Assembly (NCBI GenBank): GCA_021786845.1
Contig: JAJYMO010000031.1
Span: forward strand, 7,881 to 71,880
Origin: Pseudomonadota bacterium
GTDB taxonomy: Bacteria; Pseudomonadota; Gammaproteobacteria; Burkholderiales; Sulfuriferulaceae
DNA: 64,000 bases
Direction: 5' to 3'
The position numbers were made by a program, and so were the translations under genes. Shown in pieces: positions 1 to 34,032 of this stretch (its first letter is position 1; each line of letters opens with the position of its first letter). The notes under the pieces are model-generated. The model had not been told where the DNA came from. It searched no databases and saw only the letters and a list, made by a program, of their open reading frames with translations.

Positions 1-27
1 AACCTTGATATTTTAATGATAAGAAGT

Positions 28-67
28 CGTGAATGAATAATAAATGGCTATTTATTATTCATTCACG
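28..67 (-). terminator. perfect 18-bp AT-rich stem-loop about 40 nt downstream of the opgH stop; candidate terminator or structural element
   Basis: cgtgaatgaataataaat / ggct / atttattattcattcacg pairs perfectly; there is no clear U-tract on the minus strand, so function is uncertain. Confidence 0.3.
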
Positions 68-106
68 GGTACAAAGGGTATGCATGACGTCATTTGCGCG
101 CAAGTT

Positions 107-1996
107 TCATGCCCAAGCCCGCGCCAGCACCGCCGGAATGGTACGTTCTTCTGGTGTAAGTAACCAGCGATGACGGCGCAGTGACAGACCCCAACGGGAT
201 TCGCTGGTGAACACGGTCAATGGGGCGGAAAACATGAGCGGCAACCCTGTTGGCAATAACCACCATACCGCATCGCGGTGGAACAGAAATGTGGCCACTA
301 AGCCCAGCATGACGGGGAGCATCATGGGCATGAAGCGGTGTAATGCATCGCGCCACAGAATGGAATGGGCTTCGCGCATTGGCGATTTCCACTCCAGGTT
401 CAGCCCGGTCAGCGCGGTGAGCACGAACAAGGTATGGGCCATCATGCGTATGGGCGCTTGCAAGGCGGAAAGCACGGTTTCCAGTAAGGCGCTTTTGATC
501 AGCGCGGCACTGCCGCCATAGCTTGCCTGCTCACCTTTACCCATGACGGTGAGTACTGCCAGCACACGCGGTAACAGTAACAGCGTCAGCGTAAGTGCCC
601 ACAATAATTCCAGCGTAGAAGACATGCCCAGCCAGGAAAATGGATTCGCCATGGCCGTATGGGGTTCCAATAGTCGCACACCCAGGCTAAGTAAAAGAAA
701 GCAAAGCCACAACGGGGCGGAAACATAGGCCATGGCACCGGTCATCAGCATCGCACGGTGGGCGGGCTGAAAACCCGGTTCAGCAATGAGACGAAAGTTC
801 ATCAGATTGCCCTGACACCAGCGTCGGTCGCGCTGGAGTTCCTCCAGCAGATTGGAAGGTTGCTGCTCATAACTGCCTTCCAGATCAGTTACCAGCCAAG
901 TGTAATAACCCGCACGGCGCATCAGCGCGGCTTCCACGAAATCATGCGAAAGAATTTCACCGGACAACCCCCCATTACCGGGTAATCGCGCTAATGCACA
1001 ATGTTTCATGAACGGTTCGACCCGGATGATGGCATTATGTCCCCAGTAATGCGATTCACCCAGTTGCCAGAATTGCATCCCTGCGGTGAACAAGCGTCCG
1101 GTCACTCTTCCTGCAAATTGTTGAGCACGGGCATGCAAGGTTTGTACGCCGCAGGCACGGGGCGCGGTCTGAATGATACCGGCTTTGGGCTGTGTTTCCA
1201 TTAGGCCGACCAAGGCGGCAATGGTCTCCCCGGTCATGACGCTGTCGGCATCGAGCACGACCATATAACGGTAATTTTTCCCCCAGCGGCGGCAGAAATC
1301 CGCCACATTCCCCGCTTTACGCCGACTGCGCTGCTGGCGCAAACGGTAATAAATGCGGCAGCGGTCGCCGAGTTGTTCCCGCAAAGCGATCCAGGCGGCC
1401 AGTTCTTGTGTGCGCAAAATCGGATCATAGGTATCGGACAGCACATAAACGTCAAACAGATCGGCATGCTTGCCCTCGACCAGTGATTCGCAAGTTGCAC
1501 GCAACCCTGCAAACACTGGCGCGGCGGGTTCGTTACAGATCGGCATAATGATCGCTGTTCGGGCCTTCTTATCCAGAACCTGATGACGTCCCGCAGCGAG
1601 AGACAGGGCATGGGAATCAGGATGCCATTGCATCCAGAATCCCATCAGGGCCGTGACAAAGCCCACTGTTACCCAGCCAAACAGCAGCACAAACAATGTC
1701 AGCTGAATGAAATGCAGGAGTGGATGAGGGCTGTTCACTGTCTGGGTATGAAAAAGCAGTGCGGCGGCGATGCCGGTGCTGGTGACGGCAATTGCCATGA
1801 GTGTGATGCGTCGTCGGGAAGCCGCGTCTTTCCATGGCGGCAGCGCATCATGGGTTTTCAGGTCCGCAGCAGTGCTGTGAAACAGTGCCAGCCAAAGGCC
1901 ACGCCAGAATCCGGTCCAAGGTCGTGGCGTCATGCTGCCACGATGGATGGGTGGGGCAGTAAGCCGAGTGATCGTCGGGAGGTCATAAGGTTTCAT
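107..1996 (-). CDS. opgH: glucans biosynthesis glucosyltransferase H (osmoregulated periplasmic glucan synthesis, GT2)
   Basis: 629-aa ORF; multi-TM N- and C-terminal regions; GT2 core with VLDADS and the processive QRDRRWCQGN (QxxRW) motif, typical of MdoH/OpgH. Confidence 0.9.
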   Translation of the reverse strand: MKPYDLPTITRLTAPPIHRGSMTPRPWTGFWRGLWLALFHSTAADLKTHDALPPWKDAASRRRITLMAIAVTSTGIAAALLFHTQTVNSPHPLLHFIQLTLFVLLFGWVTVGFVTALMGFWMQWHPDSHALSLAAGRHQVLDKKARTAIIMPICNEPAAPVFAGLRATCESLVEGKHADLFDVYVLSDTYDPILRTQELAAWIALREQLGDRCRIYYRLRQQRSRRKAGNVADFCRRWGKNYRYMVVLDADSVMTGETIAALVGLMETQPKAGIIQTAPRACGVQTLHARAQQFAGRVTGRLFTAGMQFWQLGESHYWGHNAIIRVEPFMKHCALARLPGNGGLSGEILSHDFVEAALMRRAGYYTWLVTDLEGSYEQQPSNLLEELQRDRRWCQGNLMNFRLIAEPGFQPAHRAMLMTGAMAYVSAPLWLCFLLLSLGVRLLEPHTAMANPFSWLGMSSTLELLWALTLTLLLLPRVLAVLTVMGKGEQASYGGSAALIKSALLETVLSALQAPIRMMAHTLFVLTALTGLNLEWKSPMREAHSILWRDALHRFMPMMLPVMLGLVATFLFHRDAVWWLLPTGLPLMFSAPLTVFTSESRWGLSLRRHRWLLTPEERTIPAVLARAWA

Positions 1997-2033
1997 GCTG
2001 GCAGGTAGGTGGTGTTGAGTTGCAGTGAATTAA

Positions 2034-2270
2034 GCAATTATTGGGCCAGAACAGGATTTTCTTGTTATCTTGTTGATTAATTGTGTTTTTAGTATAAAGG
2101 GGATGGATTTGTTCATGGATTGACGCGGTGATTCAGGATAATCCGTCGCCTGACAGCGACATCTTGCTCAAAAACAATTCAGGATATGTAATAACCTGAT
2201 GATAATAAATTGAATTATGATTGTCGCTGAGCGGTGACAGTTTTGCGAGGGGGTGTGAGGCGTGCTATTG
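2034..2270. repeat. copy 1 of a ~237-bp direct repeat, immediately upstream of opgH
   Basis: about 80% identical by eye to 3520..3757 in the same orientation; includes the identical 33-nt run atgataataaattgaattatgattgtcgctgag; weaker similarity continues into the opgH start (~1960). Confidence 0.85.
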
Positions 2271-2522
2271 GGAAACGATTGATCAAAATCTCACTTGGTA
2301 GGTTTAAACAACCGAGCAATGAGGTCACCGGCCTGAAGGCCGGGGTTTTAAACCAGCAAGGAAAAAGGATAACAGGACAATCCGTCACGCGCGGCGGAAG
2401 GACAGCGCCCCATTGTTGCTTCTGTTTTTGAATCTGTTCCCGCAAACGTTTTTTCTGTCTGACCGTGTTTGTCCACAATACACGGACAGCTATTCCCTCT
2501 TCCCAACCAAACATCTGCAGGC

Positions 2523-3215
2523 CTATTGCATCTCCTTTTTGTCCTCATTGTCATTCTCCTCTGATGCACGGCGGATGACGCGCTGAAAAAGCAGGTTGTT
2601 GGGAATGACGATGACATGTCCATCATCTTGACGCAATTCGGTAAACATAAGGTTTTCTTCGATCACCCGGCCAGAAAGGTTTTCCGGAAAAATTTCGACC
2701 CGCTGACCCAGTCGCATGGGTTGCCAAAACCAGATAAAAAAGCGGGCAGTAATATTGCTGGCCATCGTCCATGTGGCCAAAAGACCAACACCAATGACGG
2801 CCAGCATGCCTATAAAGGTCGTCCAGAGAACCGACACATCGACGCCCCAGAGTCGCAGAATAAGCACCAGCAATAATAGCCCCAGGGCCCAGCGGATTAT
2901 TCGCTGGAGGATGGTGACGTAACTTCTGGATGCGGAATTGGATAGATGGCTGCGTGTTTTGAGCAGGACATGGAGGTGGGCTGTGGCATTATTCAGGAGG
3001 CGGGTAACGATCATATATCCGAGGACGAACAGGATGCTGGCGAGCAGGCTTTTCAGCCACCATTCCGGAGAATCGATCATGTGTTGCGTGGCGACTAATA
3101 TTTTGGTTTTAAGGTTCATTTCGATAAAAATCAAGTGAGTAATGTATCGATTAAATGAATGAATACGCCCTTGGGGATGGCGTCTTGCAAACACACAGTT
3201 AACTCGGAGGGTCAC
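2523..3215 (-). CDS. small-conductance mechanosensitive channel (MscS family); start uncertain (GTG 3215 or ATG 3119)
   Basis: TM helices followed by the MscS beta-domain signature GQRVEIFPENLSGRVIEENLMFTELRQDDGHVIVIPNNLLF. Confidence 0.8.
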   Translation of the reverse strand: MTLRVNCVFARRHPQGRIHSFNRYITHLIFIEMNLKTKILVATQHMIDSPEWWLKSLLASILFVLGYMIVTRLLNNATAHLHVLLKTRSHLSNSASRSYVTILQRIIRWALGLLLLVLILRLWGVDVSVLWTTFIGMLAVIGVGLLATWTMASNITARFFIWFWQPMRLGQRVEIFPENLSGRVIEENLMFTELRQDDGHVIVIPNNLLFQRVIRRASEENDNEDKKEMQ

Positions 3216-3327
3216 AATGAAAATGAAATAAAAGCAGCAATTCTTCCGGGATTACCGGTGGATTTGCTTTGCAATAGCGGTAACATTGTGCTGAATAAAT
3301 TAAAAAATTTGTGGAAACGTTTTGCCT

Positions 3328-3516
3328 TCAAAGCGAAAATAAGCCACATTGGTTTTTACATGAAATCCGGCACCATAGTGAATAGACTTCCAACGATCCT
3401 TCCGGAAAATTGCCGCGCTGTATGCTATCGCGACGGAGAGGGGTAGTGGGCACAGTCGTCGTCGGAATGTCGTATGGTTCCCCGTTAAAGGGATGTGCTG
3501 ATGGGTTGTTGTACAT
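3328..3516 (-). pseudogene. vestigial opgH-like 5' fragment (or small upstream ORF) inside the second repeat region
   Basis: the translation contains EPYDIPTTTVPTTPL, compared with KPYDLPTITRLTAPP at the OpgH N-terminus; the DNA similarity at 3445..3519 vs 1960..2033 is contiguous with repeat copy 2; no further OpgH similarity downstream. Confidence 0.35.
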
Positions 3517-3519
3517 GAA

Positions 3520-3757
3520 GCAATTATTAGGCCAGAATAAGGAATTTTTGTTATTTCTTTGATTAATTGTAATTTTTGTATAAATAAAATGAGTTGATTC
3601 GTGGATTGAGGCTGTGATTCAGGATAAGCTGTCGTTTGACGGAGACATCTTGCTTAAAAATAATTCAAAATATATCATAATGTTATGATAATAAATTGAA
3701 TTATGATTGTCGCTGAGAGGTGACGGTTTTGCAAGCGGCGTGAAGCATGCTATAAAG
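3520..3757. repeat. copy 2 of the ~237-bp direct repeat, upstream of the MscS-like gene and ~350 bp upstream of the sensor kinase
   Basis: aligned by eye to 2034..2270 (see copy 1). Confidence 0.85.
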
Positions 3758-4105
3758 TAGTCTTACTATGAAGCCGGTTAAATGATTGTTTTAAAAATGG
3801 CAGTTAACTGCCGTTTGTTAACCAACCCCGAATTTTGCATAACACACGCATGCACTTGTTTTCTATTGTTTCATATAGAAACTTTATTGCGAGTTGGCAC
3901 TGCGAGCCATCCCTGCTTACCTCGCTTCTATTGGGCGTATGAGTCACTGTGTTGTGCTTTCATAAAATATTTCTGTAAAACAACATGCTGCGCGATAATC
4001 GTGCAAAATACGGGCTAACAATCCGCAACGAAAAAATATTTTCATCATTTCACCGCTTGCCCGATGGGTGAGTAAACCAGGCCGCCGTTTGGTGGAGGAA
4101 TTAAA

Positions 4106-5611
4106 ATGAGCAATCACTCCGGTTCGACAGGAACAGAGGATGGGCACGGCAATGCCATCCAGAGGTTATTACGGTACTACCCAAAATCTTTCCTGAAACT
4201 GATTCTCACCGGTTTTTCCCTTGTGGTATTGCCATTGATTTTCGCGCTTATCTATAGCGCCATGTCCATTGACCAACTGGCGGAGCAGAACCGGAAAACA
4301 GTTTATCAAGCCGAACAAATTGCGCACGGAAGTCGTATCCTTGTGGACGAAGTGTCTTCGATGGAACGCAGTGTCAGGCTGTCGGTCATTCTTGGTGATG
4401 CTTCTCTGCTTGATGGCTATTTCCGGGCGCACACGAATTTTGAAAAGACGGCAACAAGTCTTTCTGCCTTGTCTCTGAGTGTTGACCAACAACAATTGCT
4501 GGATGGTTTGCGTTTGTCAGATACTGCAATTTTTCAGAAAGTGGTTGCTGACCGCCAATCACCCGAAGCGCTTAAATACGAGGTTGGCGATTTTGCTCCT
4601 TTACTGGATTCGACACGAAATTTTCTGGATCACGGCCTTGTGCTCATCGAAAGTGAAGTCAATGCGATGCAAGAAAGGGCCGTTCGGGCACGCCAAATTG
4701 TCATTTGGCAGCTGCTCGCGCTGATTCCGTTTGCGATGCTGTTGGCGTCAGGATTTTCTGTGTTAATCACCCGTCCAATTCGCCAAATTGACGAGGCGAT
4801 CCGGCATATGGGGGAGGGCGAGTTGTTGCGGCCAGTGACGGTGAATGGCCCCGAAGATTTACGGCGTCTGGGAGACAGGTTAGATTGGATGCGCTTGCGT
4901 CTGCTTGAGTTGCAAGAACAAAAGACCAGGTTTTTGCAACATATTTCGCATGAACTCAAAACGCCGCTCACTTCGATTCGCGAGGGCGCAGACTTGTTGG
5001 TGGAAGGGGCCGTCGGCGAACTGAGTGCGAAGCAGAAAAACGTGGCAAAGATACTTTTCAGTAACAGTGTACAATTGCAAAAACGCATTGAGGACCTGTT
5101 AAACTACAGTGCGTTTCAAACTGAAAAATCGAGGTTTGTCGGACGCCGGGTTGTGCTTAAGCCGCTTCTGGATGGCGTATTGCGGGACCATGATCTCGCC
5201 ATTATCAACAAAAATTTGCAAATTGAACTTGTTTGTCCAGATATCCTGCTGGCGTGCGATGAACAAAAAATCAGAATTGTTGTGGACAATCTTTTATCCA
5301 ATGCAGTCAAATTTTCCCCATCAGGTTCCCGTATTGAGGTGTGTGTGAGTCAGACAGTTGATCATATTTTTCTGGATGTTCTGGATGCAGGACCGGGTGT
5401 TGATATCATTGATCGGGACAAAATATTTAATGCATTTTATCGTGGGCAGAGAACACCGCTGAGCACGATTAAAGGAACGGGGTTGGGGTTATCCATTGCA
5501 CGAGAATACGTGCTTGAACATGGCGGCAGCATTGAACTGGTGACACAGGTGGGTGTTGGTGCGCATTTTCGTGTGACGTTGCCAGTTGTTAATTTGGCGG
5601 GTGTCGCATGA
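4106..5611 (+). CDS. sensor histidine kinase (2 TM, HAMP, HisKA, HATPase_c), QseE/GlrK-like by operon context
   Basis: H-box HISHELKTPLTSI; N and G boxes (LLSNAVKFSP, GTGLGLSIAREY); RBS ggtggagg upstream; 4-nt overlap with the next ORF. Confidence 0.85.
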   Translation: MSNHSGSTGTEDGHGNAIQRLLRYYPKSFLKLILTGFSLVVLPLIFALIYSAMSIDQLAEQNRKTVYQAEQIAHGSRILVDEVSSMERSVRLSVILGDASLLDGYFRAHTNFEKTATSLSALSLSVDQQQLLDGLRLSDTAIFQKVVADRQSPEALKYEVGDFAPLLDSTRNFLDHGLVLIESEVNAMQERAVRARQIVIWQLLALIPFAMLLASGFSVLITRPIRQIDEAIRHMGEGELLRPVTVNGPEDLRRLGDRLDWMRLRLLELQEQKTRFLQHISHELKTPLTSIREGADLLVEGAVGELSAKQKNVAKILFSNSVQLQKRIEDLLNYSAFQTEKSRFVGRRVVLKPLLDGVLRDHDLAIINKNLQIELVCPDILLACDEQKIRIVVDNLLSNAVKFSPSGSRIEVCVSQTVDHIFLDVLDAGPGVDIIDRDKIFNAFYRGQRTPLSTIKGTGLGLSIAREYVLEHGGSIELVTQVGVGAHFRVTLPVVNLAGVA

Positions 5612-6171
5612 GAGTAGACCGCCCGGGGATGCTGACTGTATGTCTGCTGTGCGCAACAATCGCTGCTTGTTCGAATGTTCCTGTTGCCCCAATTGATAAG
5701 GTATGTGTGGACGTGTCACCGGCGCCATTGCCGCCATCGCAACCACTTAAAACCAGTCGAATGGAAAAGCTTATGCTGGATTATGATGATCTGGGCAAAC
5801 TGCCGGCTACGGAGTTGAATGACGCCTATCAAAAAGCCAGTCAGGCTTATTCGCAAACTGCGAGTGATTCAAGTCGCCTGCGTCTGGCGATGTTGCTTGC
5901 GCTGCCTGATACCTCATTTCATGACACGACGACTGCACTTGATTTGCTTAATAACTGGCCAAAAGAGGAGGGCACTTCTCCTTCGGCACTGCATGGCTTT
6001 GCCCGCTTACTGAGCGCATTGCTTACGCAACAGCAACGATCAGGCAACGCTTTCAATGATCTGGAGAAAAAACTCAAAGAAGAGCAGAAACGTGCCGAAG
6101 TGCTTCAGAGTAAAATAGATGCCATCAAAGACATGGAAAAGAATCCAATTAACGGGAACAAACCGCAATGA
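5608..6171 (+). CDS. lipoprotein encoded between kinase and regulator (QseG/YfhG-like position)
   Basis: lipobox LLCATIAAC-S; coiled-coil C-terminus; ATGA overlaps at both ends (translational coupling). Confidence 0.7.
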   Translation: MRVDRPGMLTVCLLCATIAACSNVPVAPIDKVCVDVSPAPLPPSQPLKTSRMEKLMLDYDDLGKLPATELNDAYQKASQAYSQTASDSSRLRLAMLLALPDTSFHDTTTALDLLNNWPKEEGTSPSALHGFARLLSALLTQQQRSGNAFNDLEKKLKEEQKRAEVLQSKIDAIKDMEKNPINGNKPQ

Positions 6172-7529
6172 GTGAATTCCGTCCGAGTATTCTGGTTGTT
6201 GATGATGACACGGACTTATTGCAGCTGCTTTCTATTCGTCTCACCGTTGCAGGCTTTGAAGTTGTCACAGTTGAGTCTGCCGAGGCGGCATTGAACTATC
6301 TGGATGTGTCGCGCCCGCATCTGGTGATCACCGATATGCAGATGAGCGGCATGGATGGCATGGCACTGTTTGAACACGTTCATCGTACCACACCAACTTT
6401 GCCAGTGATTATTTTCACCGCCCACGGCACAATCCCCGACGCCGTTTCCGCTACTCAGCGCGGGGTGTTTGGCTACCTGAGCAAGCCATTTGACAGTAAG
6501 GCATTGCTGGATCTGGTCGATCGCGCGCTAAGACTTTCCGTGGGCGCGGTGACCAAAACTGTGCCGCATCAGGATAATTGGCAGGCGGCTATTGTTACCC
6601 AAAGCGCTGTGATGACTGAGTTGCTCGCGAAAACAAAACTCGTTGCGGAGAGTGATGCAAGTGTGCTCATCCAGGGTGAGAGTGGTACTGGAAAAGAGCT
6701 GTTCGCCCAAGCGATTCATTATGCAAGCCGACGTAAACATCACCCTTTTATCGCCGTCAGTTGCGTCGCTATTCCTGAACAATTGCTTGAATCCGAACTT
6801 TTCGGACATGCCAAAGGCGCCTTTACTGGTGCGATCAAAGACCACAAAGGTTTGTTTCAGGTGGCAGAGGGTGGTACGCTCTTCCTCGATGAGATTGGTG
6901 ATATGCCGTTGCCGTTGCAGGCCAAGTTGTTGCGTGTTCTCCAGGAGAGGCAAGTGCGTCCCGTCGGTTCCGCGCAGACCATTCCGCTGGATGTGAGAAT
7001 CATTTCTGCGACGCATCGTGATTTAAAAACGGAGGTCGACGTGGGTAATTTTCGCGAAGATCTCTACTATCGTCTCAATGTGGTGAAATTAACTATTCCG
7101 CCCTTGTCCCAGCGACGTGAGGATATTCCTTTGTTGGCCAAGCATTTTCTTTCGATGCTGGCTGATAAATATGGCAAGCACATCAATGGATTTACGCCGG
7201 ATACGATGGAAATACTTGTTGGCGCGTCCTGGCCGGGTAATGTACGCCAACTCTTGAATGTCGTTGAACAAAGCGTCGCCTTGTGTACAACACCTCTTAT
7301 TTCATTGGCGCTCGTAGAAGATGCGATTCATAAAGAGGAAGCGCATTCAATTTCTCTTGAAGAAGCCAAAAGACGTTTTGAAAGAGATTATCTGGTTCGT
7401 GTTCTAAAAATATCGGAAGGCAACGTCATGCAAGCTGCCAGGTTGTCCAAACGGAACCGCACCGAATTTTACAAGTTGCTTCAGAGGCACCAACTCGAGC
7501 CATCTGCATTTAAACCGTTATCGAACTGA
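6168..7529 (+). CDS. sigma-54-dependent response regulator (NtrC family; GlrR/QseF-like)
   Basis: receiver domain (DDD...ITDMQMSGMDG); AAA+ Walker A GESGTGKE; GAFTGA sigma-54 contact motif; C-terminal HTH. Confidence 0.9.
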   Translation: MSEFRPSILVVDDDTDLLQLLSIRLTVAGFEVVTVESAEAALNYLDVSRPHLVITDMQMSGMDGMALFEHVHRTTPTLPVIIFTAHGTIPDAVSATQRGVFGYLSKPFDSKALLDLVDRALRLSVGAVTKTVPHQDNWQAAIVTQSAVMTELLAKTKLVAESDASVLIQGESGTGKELFAQAIHYASRRKHHPFIAVSCVAIPEQLLESELFGHAKGAFTGAIKDHKGLFQVAEGGTLFLDEIGDMPLPLQAKLLRVLQERQVRPVGSAQTIPLDVRIISATHRDLKTEVDVGNFREDLYYRLNVVKLTIPPLSQRREDIPLLAKHFLSMLADKYGKHINGFTPDTMEILVGASWPGNVRQLLNVVEQSVALCTTPLISLALVEDAIHKEEAHSISLEEAKRRFERDYLVRVLKISEGNVMQAARLSKRNRTEFYKLLQRHQLEPSAFKPLSN

Positions 7530-7614
7530 TGGGTTTTGTCGCCGAACGGTTGGGGATGATTATTTATCAAGGTTTGGCAGCGTTTTATTTTTTGTTCTAA
7601 CAGAGAGGTGATTA

Positions 7615-7839
7615 ATGAAAAAAATGATCGTTGTGAACGCGTTGCTATTATTCGCGTTGGCGGGTTGCGGCCCTATGGGTGAATTCGTTGGCGGTGGAGG
7701 ATATGGCGGGGGTTATTATGGTGGTATGGATAACGGGGGTTTTGGCGGTATGGATAATGGGGGGTTTGGTGGTATGGATGATGGCGGGTACGGTGGCATG
7801 GGTGACGGGGGGTTTGGCGGCATGGGTGATGATGATTGA
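7615..7839 (+). CDS. small Gly/Met/Asp-rich tandem-repeat lipoprotein
   Basis: signal plus lipobox LFALAGC-G; mature part is GGYGGGYYGG followed by GGMDNGGF-type octapeptide repeats and a DDD end; RBS gagagg upstream. Confidence 0.7.
   Translation: MKKMIVVNALLLFALAGCGPMGEFVGGGGYGGGYYGGMDNGGFGGMDNGGFGGMDDGGYGGMGDGGFGGMGDDD
7723..7836 (+). repeat. about 4.7 tandem copies of a 24-bp unit (ggtatggataacgggggttttggc) inside the lipoprotein gene
   Basis: units read directly at 7723, 7747, 7771, 7795 and 7819. Confidence 0.9.
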
Positions 7840-7908
7840 ATTTGCCTCAGGATTTCATGGTGACAATCCGGGGGTCCAGGCCCTGATTTTTTAAAATGTA
7901 AGGAATTA

Positions 7909-8352
7909 TTGATGAAAAATATCCGAAAAACAATATTTGTATGCGCTACGCTGCTAGGGATAAGCATGATCATCCCCGTTTATGCTGATGAGCCTGTCGC
8001 GGGAGGAAGCAACGGCATGTTGCACCAACATACTGACCCAGTCGCGAATGCTGAAAGACATCTTTCTATTTTCAAAAGCGAGTTAAAAATCACACAGGAT
8101 CAAGAGCAATCGTGGATGACCTATGCTGAAAAGACCAAGCGTAATGTCAGAGAGATTAGAGACCGGATGAATGAAGCGATGCACGACAAACCACAAACGG
8201 CGCCAGAACGTTTTGATCGTCATATCGAACTGATGAGGGAACGCCTGGCGAGTTTTGAAAGGATGGACGATGCGTTCAAGCAGTTTTATGCGGTATTGAC
8301 ACCAGAACAGCGGACCGTGGCGGATCAGTATTTTGCAAAAATGCATCATTAA
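7909..8352 (+). CDS. periplasmic Spy/CpxP/ZraP-family protein (LTxxQ motif)
   Basis: signal peptide (LLGISMIIPVYA-DE); KITQDQEQSW and VLTPEQRTVADQYF LTxxQ-type motifs; helical, charged composition. Confidence 0.75.
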   Translation: MMKNIRKTIFVCATLLGISMIIPVYADEPVAGGSNGMLHQHTDPVANAERHLSIFKSELKITQDQEQSWMTYAEKTKRNVREIRDRMNEAMHDKPQTAPERFDRHIELMRERLASFERMDDAFKQFYAVLTPEQRTVADQYFAKMHH

Positions 8353-8568
8353 TCGGTGTATTGGATTGGGTATCGATTGGCTTTTCTGATGAGTGCTGAA
8401 GGAAAATTACAGGGAGTTTTGAGTTGTGGTTGATCAATTGGGGATGTGAATCTTGAGTGATTGCGGGACACGGGAGTCCGGTTATCGGGCTGGGTACAGT
8501 CCGGTCACTTGTGGCGAATGTCGCCTCAAAGGTTTGCACAGGACGATCGTCTGGAATGGGGGGGTGAT

Positions 8569-11500
8569 ATGAAAAGATTGGCGGCGCTTCTGAATACCCC
8601 TGCACGGATGGTAATCACGGTGGGCGTGACTGTTCTGATGGGCGAGTTTTTGATCATGTTGCTGATCGATGTTCTCCATCCGGTTTTTAAAAACAGGGGG
8701 CCGATTTTTTGGGAGTTCATCGATCCACTTGTACTCACTGCGTTCATTTCTCCCGCCCTCTATGTCCTTGTCTTCAGGCCGATGCGCAAACAGCAGGCCG
8801 AACTCGAAGGGCAGATCGACAGGCTGCGCCACAATGAGCAATTGGCGGTATTGATTGAAGCCATCCCCGATGCGGTTTTTTTAAAGGATGGCAAGGGCTG
8901 CTGGTTGATCATCAATCAACAGGCTGAGCAACTTTTCCAGTTGCACAACATTCCCTGGCAGGGGAAAACTGAACGGGAATTGGCAGATATGCACCCAGCA
9001 TTTCGTGCTGTTCACGAGGGGTGCCTGGCGAGCGACGAAAAGGCATGGCAGGCTGGGCGATTGCAGGTGGGCGAAGAAAGCGTGGCAGGGGAAGACGGTC
9101 AATGCACGCTCATTGAGGCGCGCAAGATGCCGATGTTTGATGAGGCGGGGCGACGCAAGGGATTGGCGATCATCGGGCGCGACATCACCGGGCGCAAGGC
9201 ATCGGAAGCGCGCATCGAACGCCTGACGAAACTTTATCGGGCCCTCAGCGAAGTCAATCAGGCCATTGTGCGGATGGACGAGGCCTCCATGCTGTTTCCG
9301 CTGGTGTGCCGGATGGCGGTGGACTTCGGTGGTGTAGAGATGGCCTGGGTCGGTCAGTTGAACGAGGTCAATGGCTTGATCGAACCGGTGGCGAGCCATG
9401 GCAACGGAGTCGAATATCTGAACGATATCGTGATTTCATCGAAAGAGGACGCGCCGGAAGGACGCGGCCCGGCCGGAATCTCATTTCGCGAAAACCGTAA
9501 TGTCATCGTCAACGACTTCCAGACGAGTGAGCTGACAGCACCATGGCGTAAGCTCGCTTTGCGTTATAACTGGGGTGCAGGCGGGTTTTTTCCGATCCAG
9601 CGCGCAGGAAAAGTGTTTGCCGTTTTTAGCGTTTACCATTCGCATTCCGGCGCTTTTGACGCCGAAATGATCGGGCTTCTGGATGAAATGTCACGCGACA
9701 TCTCGTTTGCCCTGGACAGTTTCGATCGGGAAAATGAACGCAGGCAAACGCAGTCAGCACTTCTCGGCAGCGAACGCCATTTTCGCGCCTATTTCGAGCG
9801 GTCCATGGTGGGCATGGCCGCCACCAGCCCGGAAAAAGGCTGGCTGGAGGTCAATGATGCCCTATGCCAGATGCTGGGTTATTCGCGTGAAGAACTGATG
9901 CGTCTGACTTGGGCCGAATTGACCCATCCGGACGATCTTGCCGTCAACAAAACCCTGTTTAACCGGATGCTGCGAGGCGAGCTTGATGAATATGTGCTGG
10001 ATAAGCGCTTCATCCGCAAGAACGGCACCAGCGTTTATGTGCATGTCGCTGTACGTGCCCTGCGCAAGGAGGATGGCCGTCTCAATTATGTCGTCTCGCT
10101 GGTTGAGGACATCACCGAGCGCAAGAAAACAGAAGATATGCTAAGCCTCTTGGGGCGTATCCTGGACGACTCGTCGAACGAACTTTATATGTTTGATGCG
10201 CAGACGTTGCATTTCATACTGGCCAACGCTGGTGCACAGCGCAACTTGGGTTATCCCATAGACGAGCTCAGGGCGCTTACCCCGCTCGACCTCAAGCCAA
10301 AACTCACGCCGGAAATATTCGAGCGCCTCATTGCGCCGCTCAGGCTTGGCAAGGTGGACAATGTGGTTTTCGAGGCCGAACACCAGCGCAAGGACAAGAG
10401 TGTTTACCCCGTAGAAATTCGTCTGCACCTGTCAACCAAAGAAGTCATACCTGTCTTTGTCGCGATTGTTCAGGACATCACCGAGCGCAAGCAAGCCATG
10501 CAGGAATTGCGCATTACCGCTACGGCGTTCGAGACGCAAGAATGCATCATGATTACCGACCAGGATACCCGCATCCTTCGGGTTAACGCTGCCTTCACTC
10601 GCCTGACCGGCTACTCTGCCACAGAGGCGATCGGTCAGACTCCCGCCATGCTCAAATCCGGACGGCAGAATGAAGCCTTTTACCACAATATGTGGGAAAC
10701 CCTTGCCCGTGACAAATACTGGCAGGGAGAAATCTTGAACCGGCGCAAAAATGGCAAGCTCTACCCGGCATGGCAAACCATCACTGCCATTACCGATGAA
10801 GATGGACAGGTAACGAATTATGTCGGGGTGTCTTCAGATCTCACCTTGCGCAAGGAGGCGGATGAACGGATACACGAGCTTGCTTTTTATGATCCGCTCA
10901 CCAATCTGCCCAATCGGCGTTTGTTGCGGGATCGTTTGCAGCAGGCCATGACGGACAGCCTTCGCAGTCGGCGTGGCGGGGCAGTGCTGTTTATCGATCT
11001 GGATAATTTCAAGGTGCTGAATGATATCCGTGGTCACGATATCGGCGATCTGCTGCTGATCAAGGTCGCCGAACGGCTCCACGACTGTGTGCGCAGTCAT
11101 GATACGATCGCTCGCCTGGGTGGCGACGAATTCGTTGTCATTCTTGAGGATTTGAGCGAAGACGCCCAGGAAGCGGTGACCCAGGCGCAAGGTGTTGGCA
11201 AAAAAATTCTTGCGACTATCAGCCGGCCATTTGATCTTCATGGCATTGAATATCACGGCTCATCCAGTATCGGTATCAGCCTGTTTTGCGGTGATGAGAC
11301 CAGCAGCATGGACGACTTGCTCAAGCATGCCGATGTTGCGATGTATCAGGCCAAGACTTCTGGTCGCAATACGATGTATTTTTTTGATCCTGTCATGCAA
11401 GCTAAACTGGAAATGCATGCCACCCTGATGGATGACTTGCGACAGGCGCTGCCGCAACAGCAACTCAAGCTTTACTACCAGGTGCAGGTGGATGAGCACG

Positions 11501-33181: not shown

Positions 33182-33719
33182 GGTTGCCCTCCTGTTTATT
33201 GGCCAAGGACAACATGGCCTGTATCACATGGGGATAGGTGCCACACCGGCAAAGGTGGCCGCTGATGGCGACCTCAATTTCCGCAGCGTCAGGGTGAGGA
33301 TTGTGTGCCAAAAGGGCTGCGCAACTCATCACGATGCCGGGCGTGCAAAAGCCGCATTGGACGGCATCGTGTTCGATAAAGGCTTTTTGTACGGGATGCA
33401 GATGGTCTGTTTCGCTCAGACCTTCGATTGTGGTGATTTTTTGTGAGGTGACTTCAATTGCCAATACGCTGCATGCGGCGACAGGCAGGTCATCAAGCCA
33501 GACTGTGCAAGCAGAACACGCGCCATGATTACAGGCAACCTTTGTTCCAGTCAGGTTTAATGAAGTTCGCAGTGCCTCAGCCAGCGTCGTCCGTGGTTCC
33601 ACATCAATTGACTGTGAAACACCATTGACATTAAGCACCATTGAAACGGCGCCTGGTCCAAGAATTTCAGCGGCTGGTTTTGTTTGGTCTTTGCCAGTCT
33701 TGTGCGTTTTGTCAGACAT
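33174..33719 (-). CDS. (2Fe-2S)-binding small subunit of the molybdenum hydroxylase
   Basis: C-x4-C-x2-C (CNHGACSACTV) and CGFCTPG...CRCGTY motifs; no twin-arginine signal. Confidence 0.9.
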   Translation of the reverse strand: MSDKTHKTGKDQTKPAAEILGPGAVSMVLNVNGVSQSIDVEPRTTLAEALRTSLNLTGTKVACNHGACSACTVWLDDLPVAACSVLAIEVTSQKITTIEGLSETDHLHPVQKAFIEHDAVQCGFCTPGIVMSCAALLAHNPHPDAAEIEVAISGHLCRCGTYPHVIQAMLSLANKQEGNHE

Positions 33720-34032
33720 GTGCTAAATCCTCCGAAAACAGCTACGGATTTTTCATCAAATCAGATTTGGTGCGATATTGTTCGAGATGGGGGTATCAGG
33801 TGTTGTCAGTACCAAAATGGCCCCCGCAATGTGAAAGGAACTGGTGTAACTTTAACACACTATTTGTTGCACAGAGAGTGGGTTATATTAATCCGGGACA
33901 CAAGGGGCCTGTCATTCGACCAAATGTATTCCCGGTTTCACTGGCTTTCACAGACAGTCTTGAGGGGGCAAGGCGCTCATAAACAACAGCTGTCCCCCGC
34001 CTTGTGTGCCTAAACCTATTTACGGATGATAA

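What the first reader, a model, noticed from the sequence alone, without database searches (positions are those of the whole stretch)
1960..3822. Homologous ~240-bp upstream segments precede both opgH and an MscS-like channel, just upstream of a GlrK-like kinase operon
2034..2270 and 3520..3757 are direct repeats (~80% identity, with one identical 33-nt run). Weaker similarity extends into the opgH start codon region. The second copy retains a decayed OpgH-like N-terminus (EPYDIPTTTVPTT vs KPYDLPTITRLTA) before the MscS-like gene. Two genes that both act in adaptation to low osmolarity therefore sit behind the same leader. This suggests either a shared osmoregulated promoter/5' UTR on the minus strand or a promoter capture by segmental duplication. 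There is an alternative on the plus strand. Each copy has a sigma70-like promoter (copy 1: TTGTTG-N17-TATAAA at 2070..2098). Each also has a conserved small hairpin plus U-run (tgtcgctgag.ggtgac.gttttg), then a further hairpin (ccggcctgaaggccgg at ~2328; ggcagttaactgcc at ~3800). That would give two homologous ~140-230-nt RNAs. Copy 2 lies directly upstream of and co-oriented with the kinase gene; copy 1 lies a further ~1.5 kb upstream, beyond the minus-strand mscS-like gene. This is reminiscent of glmY upstream of glrK and of the GlmY/GlmZ pair in E. coli. It is speculative, because the stems are short.
Basis: partly seen in the sequence, partly recalled or inferred. Interest (0 to 1): 0.65.

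Follow-up and report, generated by a model that had tools for sequence, protein, structure and literature searches.

The report
Duplicated GlrR/sigma-54 promoter module
The repeated ~240-bp segment is most likely not a pair of small-RNA genes but two copies of a sigma-54 promoter with binding sites for the neighbouring GlrR/QseF-type regulator, one driving the periplasmic-glucan gene opgH and the other, a duplicate, placed in front of an acquired small MscS-like channel gene.

Summary
The repeat is real: 2034-2270 and 3520-3757 are 80.7% identical (random pairs 50.5±2.5%), with one identical 33-nt run.

Each copy carries, on the minus strand, a sigma-54 -24/-12 element (TGGCCc/tAATAATTGCT), an IHF-like site, and two TGTC-N10-GACA palindromes 78 nt apart. 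TGTC-N10-GACA is the published GlrR/QseF binding motif.

The adjacent regulator is 57% identical to E. coli GlrR, with an identical recognition helix.

- The closest relative has one module between opgH and the kinase, and no mscS-like gene.
- Gallionella keeps the module upstream of opgH.
- Comamonadaceae genomes have glrR, two perfect sites, an IHF-type site, TGGCA(C/T)-N5-TTGC, then opgG-opgH or opgH alone.

So the window shows a lineage-specific duplication of an enhancer-promoter module. The duplicate carries a decayed opgH 5' end and sits upstream of the mscS-like gene.

The GlmY/GlmZ-like plus-strand RNA idea is not supported: there is no Rfam match, and the only well-conserved helices are the palindromes. 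Low-depth unstranded RNA over copy 2 in one sample leaves a kinase leader possible.

This is a new member of a known promoter type, with a target I found no report of (OPG genes).

The parts
1955..2270 (.). Duplicated segment, copy 1. It covers the opgH 5' end (codons 1-14), the short leader, the sigma-54 promoter, the IHF-like site and two activator-binding sites.
   Evidence: 80.7% identity to copy 2 over 2034-2270 and 64.6% over 1955-2033, falling to background outside.
3441..3757 (.). Duplicated segment, copy 2. It has the same elements in the same register.
2033..2048 (-). Sigma-54 -24/-12 promoter of opgH, TGGCCCAATAATTGCT. The predicted start is about 2022, which gives a leader of about 26 nt to the ATG at 1996.
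   Evidence: motif. (14 of 16 columns invariant across window copy 1, copy 2, L001 and Gallionella L004). [quoted passage not shown]
2066..2078 (-). IHF-like site AATCAACAAGATA, matching 12 of 13 positions of WATCARNNNNTTR.
   Evidence: The equivalent site is perfect in Gallionella L004 (AATCAATAGGTTA, read from the alignment) and in two Comamonadaceae genomes. Consensus from PMC3045617.
2144..2161 (.). Proximal activator-binding site, CGTCGCCTGACAGCGACA, with one mismatch to TGTC-N10-GACA. It is a perfect TGTC in three other strains, which carry C2144T.
2222..2239 (.). Distal activator-binding site, TGTCGCTGAGCGGTGACA (perfect).
107..1996 (-). opgH (mdoH), the glucosyltransferase for osmoregulated periplasmic glucans. 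It is the target of the copy-1 promoter.
   Evidence: NF003960, 928 bits, cut-off 829.
3519..3534 (-). Sigma-54 -24/-12 promoter, copy 2, TGGCCTAATAATTGCT. The predicted start is about 3508.
   Evidence: An RNA contig in run X12 ends at 3499 and is contiguous with the mscS-like start.
3552..3564 (-). IHF-like site, copy 2, AATCAAAGAAATA (12 of 13).
3630..3647 (.). Proximal activator-binding site, copy 2, TGTCGTTTGACGGAGACA (perfect).
3708..3725 (.). Distal activator-binding site, copy 2, TGTCGCTGAGAGGTGACG (one mismatch).
3426..3483 (-). Decayed opgH 5' remnant. The original ATG is now GGG.
   Evidence: In L035 the same codon is AGG.
3120..3508 (-). Predicted long leader of the mscS-like gene. 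Its length varies between strains: in the X12/X15 strain, 3157-3422 is replaced by 124 nt.
   Evidence: No terminator-like site lies on the minus strand in between.
2523..3119 (-). Small MscS-like channel gene (198 aa, no C-terminal domain).
   Evidence: a family of 180-198 aa proteins; the window's own product is 198 aa.
2328..2372 (.). 45-nt high-copy interspersed repeat with a hairpin (CCGGCCTGAAGGCCGG), lying between the mscS-like 3' end and copy 1.
   Evidence: depth about 80-220 times the flanks in four DNA samples, with many different flanking sequences; an inverted copy lies upstream of the mscS-like gene in another strain.
4106..5611 (+). QseE/GlrK-like sensor kinase.
   Evidence: 30% identity to E. 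coli GlrK, E = 4e-56.
5608..6171 (+). Lipoprotein in the QseG position, with lipobox IAAC.
   Evidence: sequence. (no significant similarity to E. coli QseG). PMC12691602 (position conserved).
6168..7529 (+). GlrR/QseF-like sigma-54 activator, with a GAFTGA motif and recognition helix RNRTEFYKLL.
   Evidence: best NCBIfam family is GlrR at 619.6 bits, against NtrC at 433. (57% identity over the full length).

Best explanation
Each copy of the repeat is a sigma-54-dependent promoter with its upstream enhancer, read on the minus strand.

Proposed mechanism:
1. The neighbouring QseE/GlrK-like kinase, working with the lipoprotein encoded between kinase and regulator, phosphorylates the GlrR/QseF-like activator (inferred from the E. 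coli system).
2. The activator binds the two TGTC-N10-GACA palindromes. Their centres lie about 131 and 209 nt upstream of the predicted start.
3. IHF bends the AT-rich spacer.
4. The activator's ATPase opens the sigma-54 holoenzyme complex at TGGCC(C/T)AATAATTGCT.

Copy 1 drives opgH. This is the ancestral arrangement: opgH lies divergent from the kinase operon with one module between them.

Copy 2 is a lineage-specific duplicate of that module. It still carries about 14 decayed codons of opgH and now sits about 390 nt upstream of a small MscS-like channel gene whose relatives are scattered across unrelated mine-drainage bacteria. The duplication has therefore probably recruited that gene into the same regulon.

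Shown here: the sequence elements, their register, their conservation across genera, the similarity of the regulator, the single-copy state in the nearest relative, and the link between glrR, the module and the opg genes in other Betaproteobacteria.

Inferred: actual binding, dependence on sigma-54, the start sites, the signal sensed, and whether copy 2 is active.
For: Motifs. Both copies carry TGGC-N7-TTGC on the minus strand, plus two TGTC-N10-GACA sites (perfect or one mismatch) exactly 78 nt apart. The window's other three perfect TGTC-N10-GACA sites all lie inside long ORFs.

Literature. GlrR binds TGTCN10GACA motifs more than 100 bp upstream of the sigma-54 promoters of glmY and glmZ, with IHF sites in between (PMC3045617).

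Comparison with E. coli glmY. Its sites, read from the genome, are TGTCGCTTTCTGGCGACA and TGTCTCTTTTTAGCGACA, starting at -196 and -133. These are the same type and at a similar distance as here.

Regulator. The best NCBIfam family is GlrR (619.6 bits, against 433 for NtrC). It is 57% identical to E. coli GlrR over the full length, and the recognition helix RNRTEFYKLL is identical.

Footprinting. In the alignment of copy 1, copy 2, L001 and Gallionella L004, 22 of 24 core positions are invariant, against 82 of 257 other columns (Fisher p = 9e-9).

Evolution. L001 (kinase 95% identical) has opgH directly divergent from the kinase, one module and no mscS-like gene.

Independent recurrence. A metagenome scan with a purely structural DNA pattern returned loci in which a GlrR-like gene is followed by the module and then opgG, with opgH after it in L047. 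Complete genomes of Ramlibacter tataouinensis, Variovorax terrae and Rhodoferax koreense show kinase, small protein, GlrR, two perfect sites, an IHF-type site (perfect in two of the three), TGGCA(C/T)AGGGTTTGC, then opgG-opgH or opgH alone.

Copy 2. All core elements are intact, while the opgH start codon is lost. The same holds in L035, a contig from another sample whose cassette is 86.5% identical.

RNA. An X12 metatranscriptome contig joins the mscS-like start to the copy-2 leader and ends at 3499, 9 nt from the predicted start. The opgH RNA contigs do not extend into the enhancer.
Against: No experimental or stranded transcript data exist. All RNA evidence comes from unstranded assembled contigs of related strains.

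The opgH RNA contigs end at 1955-1966, about 55-65 nt short of the predicted start at 2022. They fit the prediction but do not confirm it.

The -24 element reads TGGCC(C/T) rather than TGGCAC. The IHF-like sites match 12 of 13 positions. There is no Shine-Dalgarno sequence before opgH.

In run X15, a strain about 90% identical shows low-depth RNA over 3530-3888, contiguous with the kinase 5' end. Something is therefore transcribed across copy 2 in at least one sample.

The regulator scores below NCBIfam's GlrR equivalog cut-off (619.6 against 763).

rpoN was not looked for in the window.

The leader in front of the mscS-like gene is long (about 390 nt), so a closer promoter cannot be excluded.
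Confidence: 0.85

Rival explanations
1. Two homologous plus-strand small RNAs, analogous to GlmY/GlmZ. Each would start from a sigma-70-like promoter inside the repeat and end at the small hairpin plus U-run or at the next hairpin. Copy 2 would be co-oriented with the kinase gene, as glmY is with glrK.
For: - The palindromes fold as 10-bp hairpins followed by GTTTTG.
- Plus-strand folds of both copies have z-scores of -2.5 and -3.0.
- Low-depth RNA covers 3530-3888 in X15.
- The position upstream of the kinase resembles glmY-glrK.
Against: - No GlmY/GlmZ or any other Rfam match at E <= 1, while the same library finds E. coli glmY at 146 bits.
- The consensus fold of four orthologous modules contains only the two binding-site palindromes and one weak 7-pair helix. 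The covariation term is -1.19 kcal/mol.
- The two copies give different minimum-energy folds.
- The proposed -35 hexamer matches 3 of 6 positions, was not listed by the scan, overlaps the IHF-like site, and its -10 is not conserved in L004.
- The downstream hairpins are not homologous. One belongs to a high-copy repeat, and the other is absent from L001.
- The RNA depth in X15 equals that of the kinase mRNA, which is not the abundance expected of an sRNA. It is zero in X12.
Confidence: 0.05
2. The module works in both directions at copy 2 (and in the single-copy ancestor). Besides activating the minus-strand sigma-54 promoter, the binding sites overlap or feed a plus-strand promoter for the kinase operon, which would give autoregulation. 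This would add to the main explanation rather than replace it.
For: - The scan finds plus-strand sigma-70-like sites that overlap the proximal binding site in both copies: TTGACG-17-AATAAT at 3636-3664 (10 of 12) and CTGACA-17-AACAAT at 2150-2178.
- A loose GG-N10-GC motif follows the distal site on the plus strand in both copies: 2251-2266 and 3736-3751.
- X15 RNA contigs cover 3530-3888 and continue into the kinase gene.
Against: - The number of promoter-like hits is no higher than in shuffled sequence (6 found, 4.7±2.1 expected).
- The plus-strand GG-N10-GC motif is a poor match and has the wrong spacing in L001 (read from the alignment).
- The X15 contig begins upstream of both candidate starts.
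- The strand of the RNA is unknown.
- X12 shows no RNA over this region.
Confidence: 0.2
3. Copy 2 is a decaying, non-functional relic of the duplication. The mscS-like gene would then be expressed from another promoter closer to its start.
For: - The opgH remnant has lost its start codon.
- The leader would be about 390 nt long, and its length varies between strains.
- Homologs of the mscS-like gene in other taxa have no such module.
Against: - All core promoter and enhancer positions, and their 78-nt register, are intact in copy 2 and in L035, while the surrounding sequence has diverged.
- An RNA contig runs from the gene start to within 9 nt of the predicted start and stops there.
- No terminator-like site lies in between on the minus strand.
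Confidence: 0.12
4. The repeat is a mobile or assembly-derived element: a MITE-like repeat, or a chimera of two strains joined at the identical 33-mer.
For: - A high-copy 45-nt repeat lies next to copy 1.
- In L035 a site-specific recombinase gene follows the cassette.
- Short-k assemblies break at the 33-mer.
Against: - Only two copies exist in the window.
- No pair of inverted repeats was reported at the two ends of either copy.
- Contigs from four independent samples tile the whole arrangement at equal depth. In X2, where a variant interrupts the 33-mer, contigs cross the repeat.
- The content of the repeat is fully accounted for by promoter elements that relatives keep in single copy.
Confidence: 0.03

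Closest known systems
The GlrR/QseF-dependent sigma-54 promoters of glmY and glmZ (and rpoE P2) in Enterobacteriaceae
   Same: - A sigma-54 -24/-12 core.
- Several TGTC-N10-GACA activator sites more than 100 bp upstream, with the extended form TGTC(G/T)C...G(C/A)GACA.
- An IHF-type site in between.
- Physical linkage to the kinase-lipoprotein-regulator operon.
- A regulator 57% identical to GlrR, with an identical recognition helix.
   Different: - The promoters drive protein-coding envelope genes (opgH, an mscS-like gene), not an sRNA or a sigma factor.
- There are two sites rather than three, in a fixed 78-nt register.
- No overlapping sigma-70 promoter was detected.
- The host is an uncultured betaproteobacterium from mine drainage.
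- The module is present twice.
The QseE-QseG-QseF (GlrK-YfhG-GlrR) two-component system
   Same: The gene order is kinase, lipoprotein, sigma-54 activator. This cluster is reported to be widespread in Gamma- and Betaproteobacteria and Acidithiobacillia (PMC12691602).
   Different: - The kinase is only 30% identical to GlrK.
- The lipoprotein has no detectable sequence similarity to E. coli QseG.
- In the passages of that paper retrieved here, the only target named is glmY.
GlmY/GlmZ small RNAs (Rfam RF00128, RF00083)
   Same: They also sit next to the glrK-type kinase gene, and a homologous type of promoter and enhancer precedes them.
   Different: No sequence or structure match was found. The conserved palindromes here are DNA binding sites. 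The promoter faces away from the kinase.
Regulon growth by promoter duplication or promoter capture
   Same: A whole regulatory region, including a fragment of the original gene's coding sequence, was copied in front of another gene.
   Different: What was copied is a complete long-range enhancer-promoter unit of about 230 nt, with its internal spacing preserved. The old and new targets both plausibly act in osmotic and envelope homeostasis.

Membership tests
GlrR/QseF-dependent sigma-54 promoter (glmY type) | A sigma-54 core with GG and GC ten bases apart (TGGC-N7-TTGC) | tested here: met
   2033-2048(-) and 3519-3534(-). 14 of 16 columns are invariant across four orthologous modules.
GlrR/QseF-dependent sigma-54 promoter (glmY type) | Two or more TGTC-N10-GACA sites more than 100 bp upstream | tested here: met
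   Two per copy, with centres about -131 and -209, each perfect or with one mismatch. Consensus from PMC3045617.
GlrR/QseF-dependent sigma-54 promoter (glmY type) | An IHF site between enhancer and core | tested here: inconclusive
   12 of 13 match to WATCARNNNNTTR in both copies. Perfect in L004 and in two Comamonadaceae genomes. Binding was not tested.
GlrR/QseF-dependent sigma-54 promoter (glmY type) | A cognate GlrR-type activator with a matching DNA-binding helix | tested here: met
   6168-7529(+). The best NCBIfam family is GlrR. It is 57% identical to E. coli GlrR, and RNRTEFYKLL is identical.
GlrR/QseF-dependent sigma-54 promoter (glmY type) | Transcription starts about 12 nt after the GC and depends on sigma-54 and the activator | not testable with these tools
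   Only unstranded RNA contigs are available. Their ends at 3499 and 1955-1966 are compatible with the prediction but not decisive.
GlmY/GlmZ sRNA | A match to the Rfam covariance models | tested here: not met
   No hit at E <= 1 in 1-9000. Positive control: E. coli glmY scores 146 bits.
GlmY/GlmZ sRNA | A conserved secondary structure supported by covariation | tested here: not met
   The only well-conserved helices are the two binding palindromes. The covariation term is -1.19 kcal/mol. Only four sequences were available, so power is low.
GlmY/GlmZ sRNA | A discrete, abundant short transcript | tested here: inconclusive
   No RNA over either copy in X12. In X15, low depth over 3530-3888, equal to the kinase mRNA depth, strand unknown.
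QseE-QseG-QseF two-component system | Gene order kinase, lipoprotein, sigma-54 response regulator | tested here: met
   4106-5611, 5608-6171 (lipobox IAAC) and 6168-7529.
QseE-QseG-QseF two-component system | Orthology of each protein to its E. coli counterpart | tested here: inconclusive
   Regulator: 57% identity, but 619.6 bits is below the equivalog cut-off of 763. Kinase: 30% identity, E = 4e-56. Lipoprotein: E = 5.3.
Mobile repeat (MITE/REP) as the identity of the ~240-bp repeat | Many copies and terminal inverted repeats | tested here: not met
   Two copies only. No pair of inverted repeats was reported at the ends of either copy. Relatives carry a single copy.
OpgH (MdoH) | An NCBIfam equivalog score above the cut-off | tested here: met
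   NF003960, 928 bits, cut-off 829.
MscS family | Transmembrane region, beta domain and C-terminal alpha/beta domain | tested here: inconclusive
   Only the beta domain (PF00924) is detected, and the protein ends soon after it. Homologs are all 180-214 aa, so this is a genuine short subfamily.

The most novel reading that the evidence does not exclude
In Betaproteobacteria the QseE-QseG-QseF system may be, at its core, a controller of periplasmic-glucan synthesis. Its sigma-54 enhancer-promoter module is physically tied to opgH or opgGH in Nitrosomonadales-type lineages and in Comamonadaceae. The enterobacterial glmY promoter next to glrK would then be a later re-use of the same locus-linked module. 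The window would record the regulon growing by duplication of the whole module, which brought in a horizontally spread small MscS-like channel. That would give this long-puzzling two-component system a concrete osmotic or periplasmic output. It would also give OPG osmoregulation a dedicated transcriptional regulator that can be tested in cultured Ramlibacter, Variovorax or Rhodoferax.
Probability: 0.4. Interest if true: 0.65.

Novelty: new member of a known kind. Interest (0 to 1): 0.5.

Why it matters
Known targets of GlrR/QseF are glmY, glmZ and rpoE in enterobacteria. A 2025 study showed that the qseEGF cluster is widespread in Beta- and Gammaproteobacteria and Acidithiobacillia (PMC12691602). 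In the passages of that paper I retrieved, the only target named is glmY.

This work gives a specific and repeatedly observed target outside the enterics: the genes for osmoregulated periplasmic glucans. The promoter architecture is conserved from an uncultured mine-drainage bacterium to cultured Comamonadaceae. Full-text searches found no paper linking GlrR, QseF or sigma-54 with opgH or opgG.

The result turns two open questions into simple knockout and reporter experiments. One is what QseEF controls outside enterics. The other is how opg transcription is regulated.

The duplication is also a clean natural example of a whole enhancer-promoter unit being copied, with its spacing kept, in front of an acquired gene.

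Tried and rejected
- GlmY/GlmZ or any other known RNA family: the Rfam search at E <= 1 gave only two spurious eukaryotic hits.
- tRNA or tmRNA in 1900-4200: none.
- Plus-strand sRNA structure: folds and the consensus fold show only the binding palindromes.
- Sigma-70 and terminator scans: the number of hits is no higher than in shuffled sequence.
- A third copy, or other regulon members, in the window: none. The three other perfect TGTC-N10-GACA sites lie inside long ORFs. A weak candidate near 33510-33720 has two one-mismatch sites at a different spacing and was not pursued.
- Modules near the kinase operon in Nitrosomonas, Sideroxydans and Sulfuriferula loci: none found within 10 kb, and opgH is not in those flanks.
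- Modules upstream of mscS-like homologs in other taxa: none. There the gene heads sucrose or trehalose synthesis operons.
- A plus-strand sigma-54 promoter for the kinase (TGGCAC at about 3895): the -12 spacing is wrong and it is not conserved in L001 (read).
- Strand-specific RNA evidence: every RNA run holding this DNA is available only as unstranded contigs.
- Of the 22 metagenome pattern hits, roughly half are GC-rich coding sequence and look like chance matches.

Full report

Yes. The repeat finder reports one 250-nt direct repeat, 2003-2252 vs 3489-3738, at 79% identity without gaps. The identical 33-mer at 2199-2231 and 3685-3717 has no third copy, even with three mismatches allowed. 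Similarity continues at 64.6% into the first ~14 codons of opgH (1955-2033 vs 3441-3519) and then drops to background.

- opgH at 107-1996(-): MdoH equivalog, 928 bits.
- A small MscS-like gene.
- A kinase at 4106-5611.
- A lipoprotein at 5608-6171.
- A sigma-54 activator at 6168-7529.

Contigs from four independent DNA samples tile the whole arrangement at uniform depth, so the duplication is not an assembly artefact.

**2. What the repeat contains**

Read on the minus strand, each copy has three kinds of element.

- **A sigma-54 -24/-12 element.** TGGCCCAATAATTGCT at 2048-2033 and TGGCCTAATAATTGCT at 3534-3519.
- **Two TGTC-N10-GACA palindromes, exactly 78 nt apart.** They lie at 2144-2161 and 2222-2239 in copy 1, and at 3630-3647 and 3708-3725 in copy 2. 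Each is perfect or has one mismatch. In three other strains C2144T makes the imperfect copy-1 site perfect.
- **An IHF-like site** (AATCAA-N4-ATA, 12 of 13 positions) in the AT-rich spacer.

TGTCN10GACA is the published binding motif of GlrR/QseF. That regulator binds more than 100 bp upstream of the sigma-54 promoters of glmY and glmZ and needs IHF (PMC3045617). I read the E. coli glmY upstream region directly. Its sites (TGTCGCTTTCTGGCGACA, TGTCTCTTTTTAGCGACA, TGTCTGTAAATCACGACA, starting at -196, -133 and -229) and its core (TGGCACAGTTACTGCA) have the same form and geometry as here, where the site centres lie at about -131 and -209.

The window's regulator has GlrR as its best NCBIfam family (619.6 bits, against 433 for NtrC, although below the equivalog cut-off of 763). 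It is 57% identical to E. coli GlrR end to end, and the recognition helix RNRTEFYKLL is identical.

**3. Comparative evidence**

Searching genomes with the kinase gave relatives from 95% down to about 41% identity.

- **L001, the closest relative.** opgH is directly divergent from the kinase, with one module between them and no mscS-like gene.
- **Gallionella L004.** OpgH is 75% identical and lies 3.6 kb beyond the regulator. It keeps the module: two perfect sites 78 nt apart, a perfect IHF site and TGGCCTGATAATTGCT.

In the four-way alignment, 22 of 24 core positions are invariant against 82 of 257 others (Fisher p = 9e-9).

I then scanned metagenome contigs with a purely structural DNA pattern: the sigma-54 core, a gap, then two sites 78 nt apart. 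It returned 22 loci. Four of them lie next to GlrR-type genes or opg genes:
- L051 is the Gallionella locus again.
- L047, L042 and L059 have a GlrR-like gene, then the module (CTGGCAC-N5-TTGC in two and GTGGCAC-N5-TTGC in L042; sites TGTCGCC...GGCGACA), then opgG. L047 continues into opgH.

A protein search placed L047 in Comamonadaceae. Three cultured genomes there show the same order: Ramlibacter tataouinensis CP000245.1, Variovorax terrae and Rhodoferax koreense CP019236.1. Each has kinase, small protein, GlrR, two perfect sites 67 nt apart, an IHF-type site (perfect in two of the three), TGGCA(C/T)AGGGTTTGC, then opgG-opgH or opgH alone.

So the link between this regulator type, this promoter type and the OPG genes recurs in separate lineages.

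**4. The duplication**

Copy 2 carries a decayed opgH 5' end whose ATG has become GGG. It lies about 390 nt upstream of the mscS-like gene at 2523-3119(-).

That gene belongs to a genuine family of 180-198 aa proteins found in Acidithiobacillus, Ferrovum and Sulfuriferula. Elsewhere it heads sucrose or trehalose synthesis operons and has no module.

L035 is a contig from another sample. It has the same cassette (proximal site, sigma-54 core, remnant, gene) at 86.5% identity, but a PF10136 site-specific recombinase gene follows it.

Pairwise identities between module copies:

| Pair | Identity |
|---|---|
| copy 1 vs copy 2 | 75% |
| copy 1 vs L001 | 73% |
| copy 2 vs L001 | 69% |
| copy 2 vs L035 | 78% |

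The duplication is therefore not recent, yet every core element and the 78-nt register survive in copy 2 and L035. That argues for continued function.

**5. RNA evidence**

Only unstranded contigs are available.

- opgH RNA contigs in two metatranscriptomes stop at 1955-1966 and do not run into the enhancer.
- In X12, a 252-nt contig joins the mscS-like start (3106-3156) to the copy-2 leader (3423-3499) and ends 9 nt from the predicted start at 3508. It shows no RNA over 3530-3977.
- In X15, a strain about 90% identical shows depth of about 5 over 3530-3888, contiguous with the kinase 5' end.

Some transcription across copy 2, possibly a long kinase leader, therefore cannot be excluded.

**6. 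The plus-strand sRNA idea**

- No Rfam match was found. The positive control, E. coli glmY, scores 146 bits.
- The consensus fold of four modules contains only the two palindromes and one weak helix.
- The proposed sigma-70 promoter is weak, overlaps the IHF-like site and is not conserved in Gallionella.
- The downstream hairpins are unrelated to each other. One is part of a 45-nt high-copy repeat.

**7. Comparison with what is known, and novelty**

This is a GlrR/QseF-type sigma-54 promoter, which is a known kind. Its targets, opgH and an mscS-like gene, and its host class are not ones I could find described. Full-text searches found no paper that links GlrR, QseF or sigma-54 with opgH or opgG. 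The 2025 survey of qseEGF distribution names only glmY as a target in the passages I retrieved.

**Verdict:** Interest is moderate.

Noticed in passing
window 2328-2372: A 45-nt element with a hairpin (CCGGCCTGAAGGCCGGGGTTTTAAACC...) is about 80-220 times deeper than its flanks in four DNA metagenomes and has many different flanking sequences. It is a high-copy interspersed (REP- or MITE-like) repeat. In the X12/X15 strain an inverted copy lies between 3156 and 3423, so there the mscS-like gene is flanked by inverted copies.
   Followed up: partly
L035 1523-2074: In a related metagenome contig, the cassette of module copy 2 plus the mscS-like gene is followed by a PF10136 site-specific recombinase gene. 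Homology to the window stops at about 2382, next to the 45-nt repeat. This hints at how the cassette moved.
   Followed up: partly
L036-L040 (homologs of window 2523-3119): The small MscS-like protein (180-198 aa, no C-terminal domain) occurs in Acidithiobacillus, Ferrovum and Sulfuriferula. It often sits directly upstream of sucrose or trehalose synthesis genes (PfkB, sucrose-phosphate synthase/phosphatase, sucrose synthase; or a Glyco_transf_20/S6PP fusion). That suggests an osmolyte-linked channel subfamily.
   Followed up: partly
window 3530-3888 and 4002-4131: In metatranscriptome X15, a strain about 90% identical shows low-depth RNA across the copy-2 enhancer, contiguous with the kinase gene. 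The strand is unknown. It may be a long kinase leader.
   Followed up: partly
window 7615-8352: Directly after the regulator gene come two small genes. One encodes a small lipoprotein-like protein made of five 24-nt tandem repeats (GGxGGMD motifs). The other encodes an LTXXQ (CpxP/Spy-type) periplasmic protein, which L001 also has. They form an envelope-stress-flavoured neighbourhood.
   Followed up: no
window 28-67: A perfect 18-bp AT-rich hairpin with a 4-nt loop lies just downstream of the opgH stop codon. In L001 and L004 an OpgG/OpgD homolog follows opgH on the same strand. In the window that gene would lie beyond the left edge.
   Followed up: no
window 3159-3446 (+) and L035 266-556: A 95-96 aa ORF antisense to the mscS-like leader is called as a gene in L035. 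It has no Pfam match, and most of it is replaced by other sequence in the X12/X15 strain. It is probably not a gene.
   Followed up: partly
L046 and L052: Low-GC metagenome loci with two identical sites (TGTCGGATTTTCCCGACA) 78 nt apart and the core CTGGCATCTTTTTTGC, next to a more distant (39-47% identical) sigma-54 activator. This may be a related enhancer type with other targets (response-regulator and kinase genes downstream).
   Followed up: no
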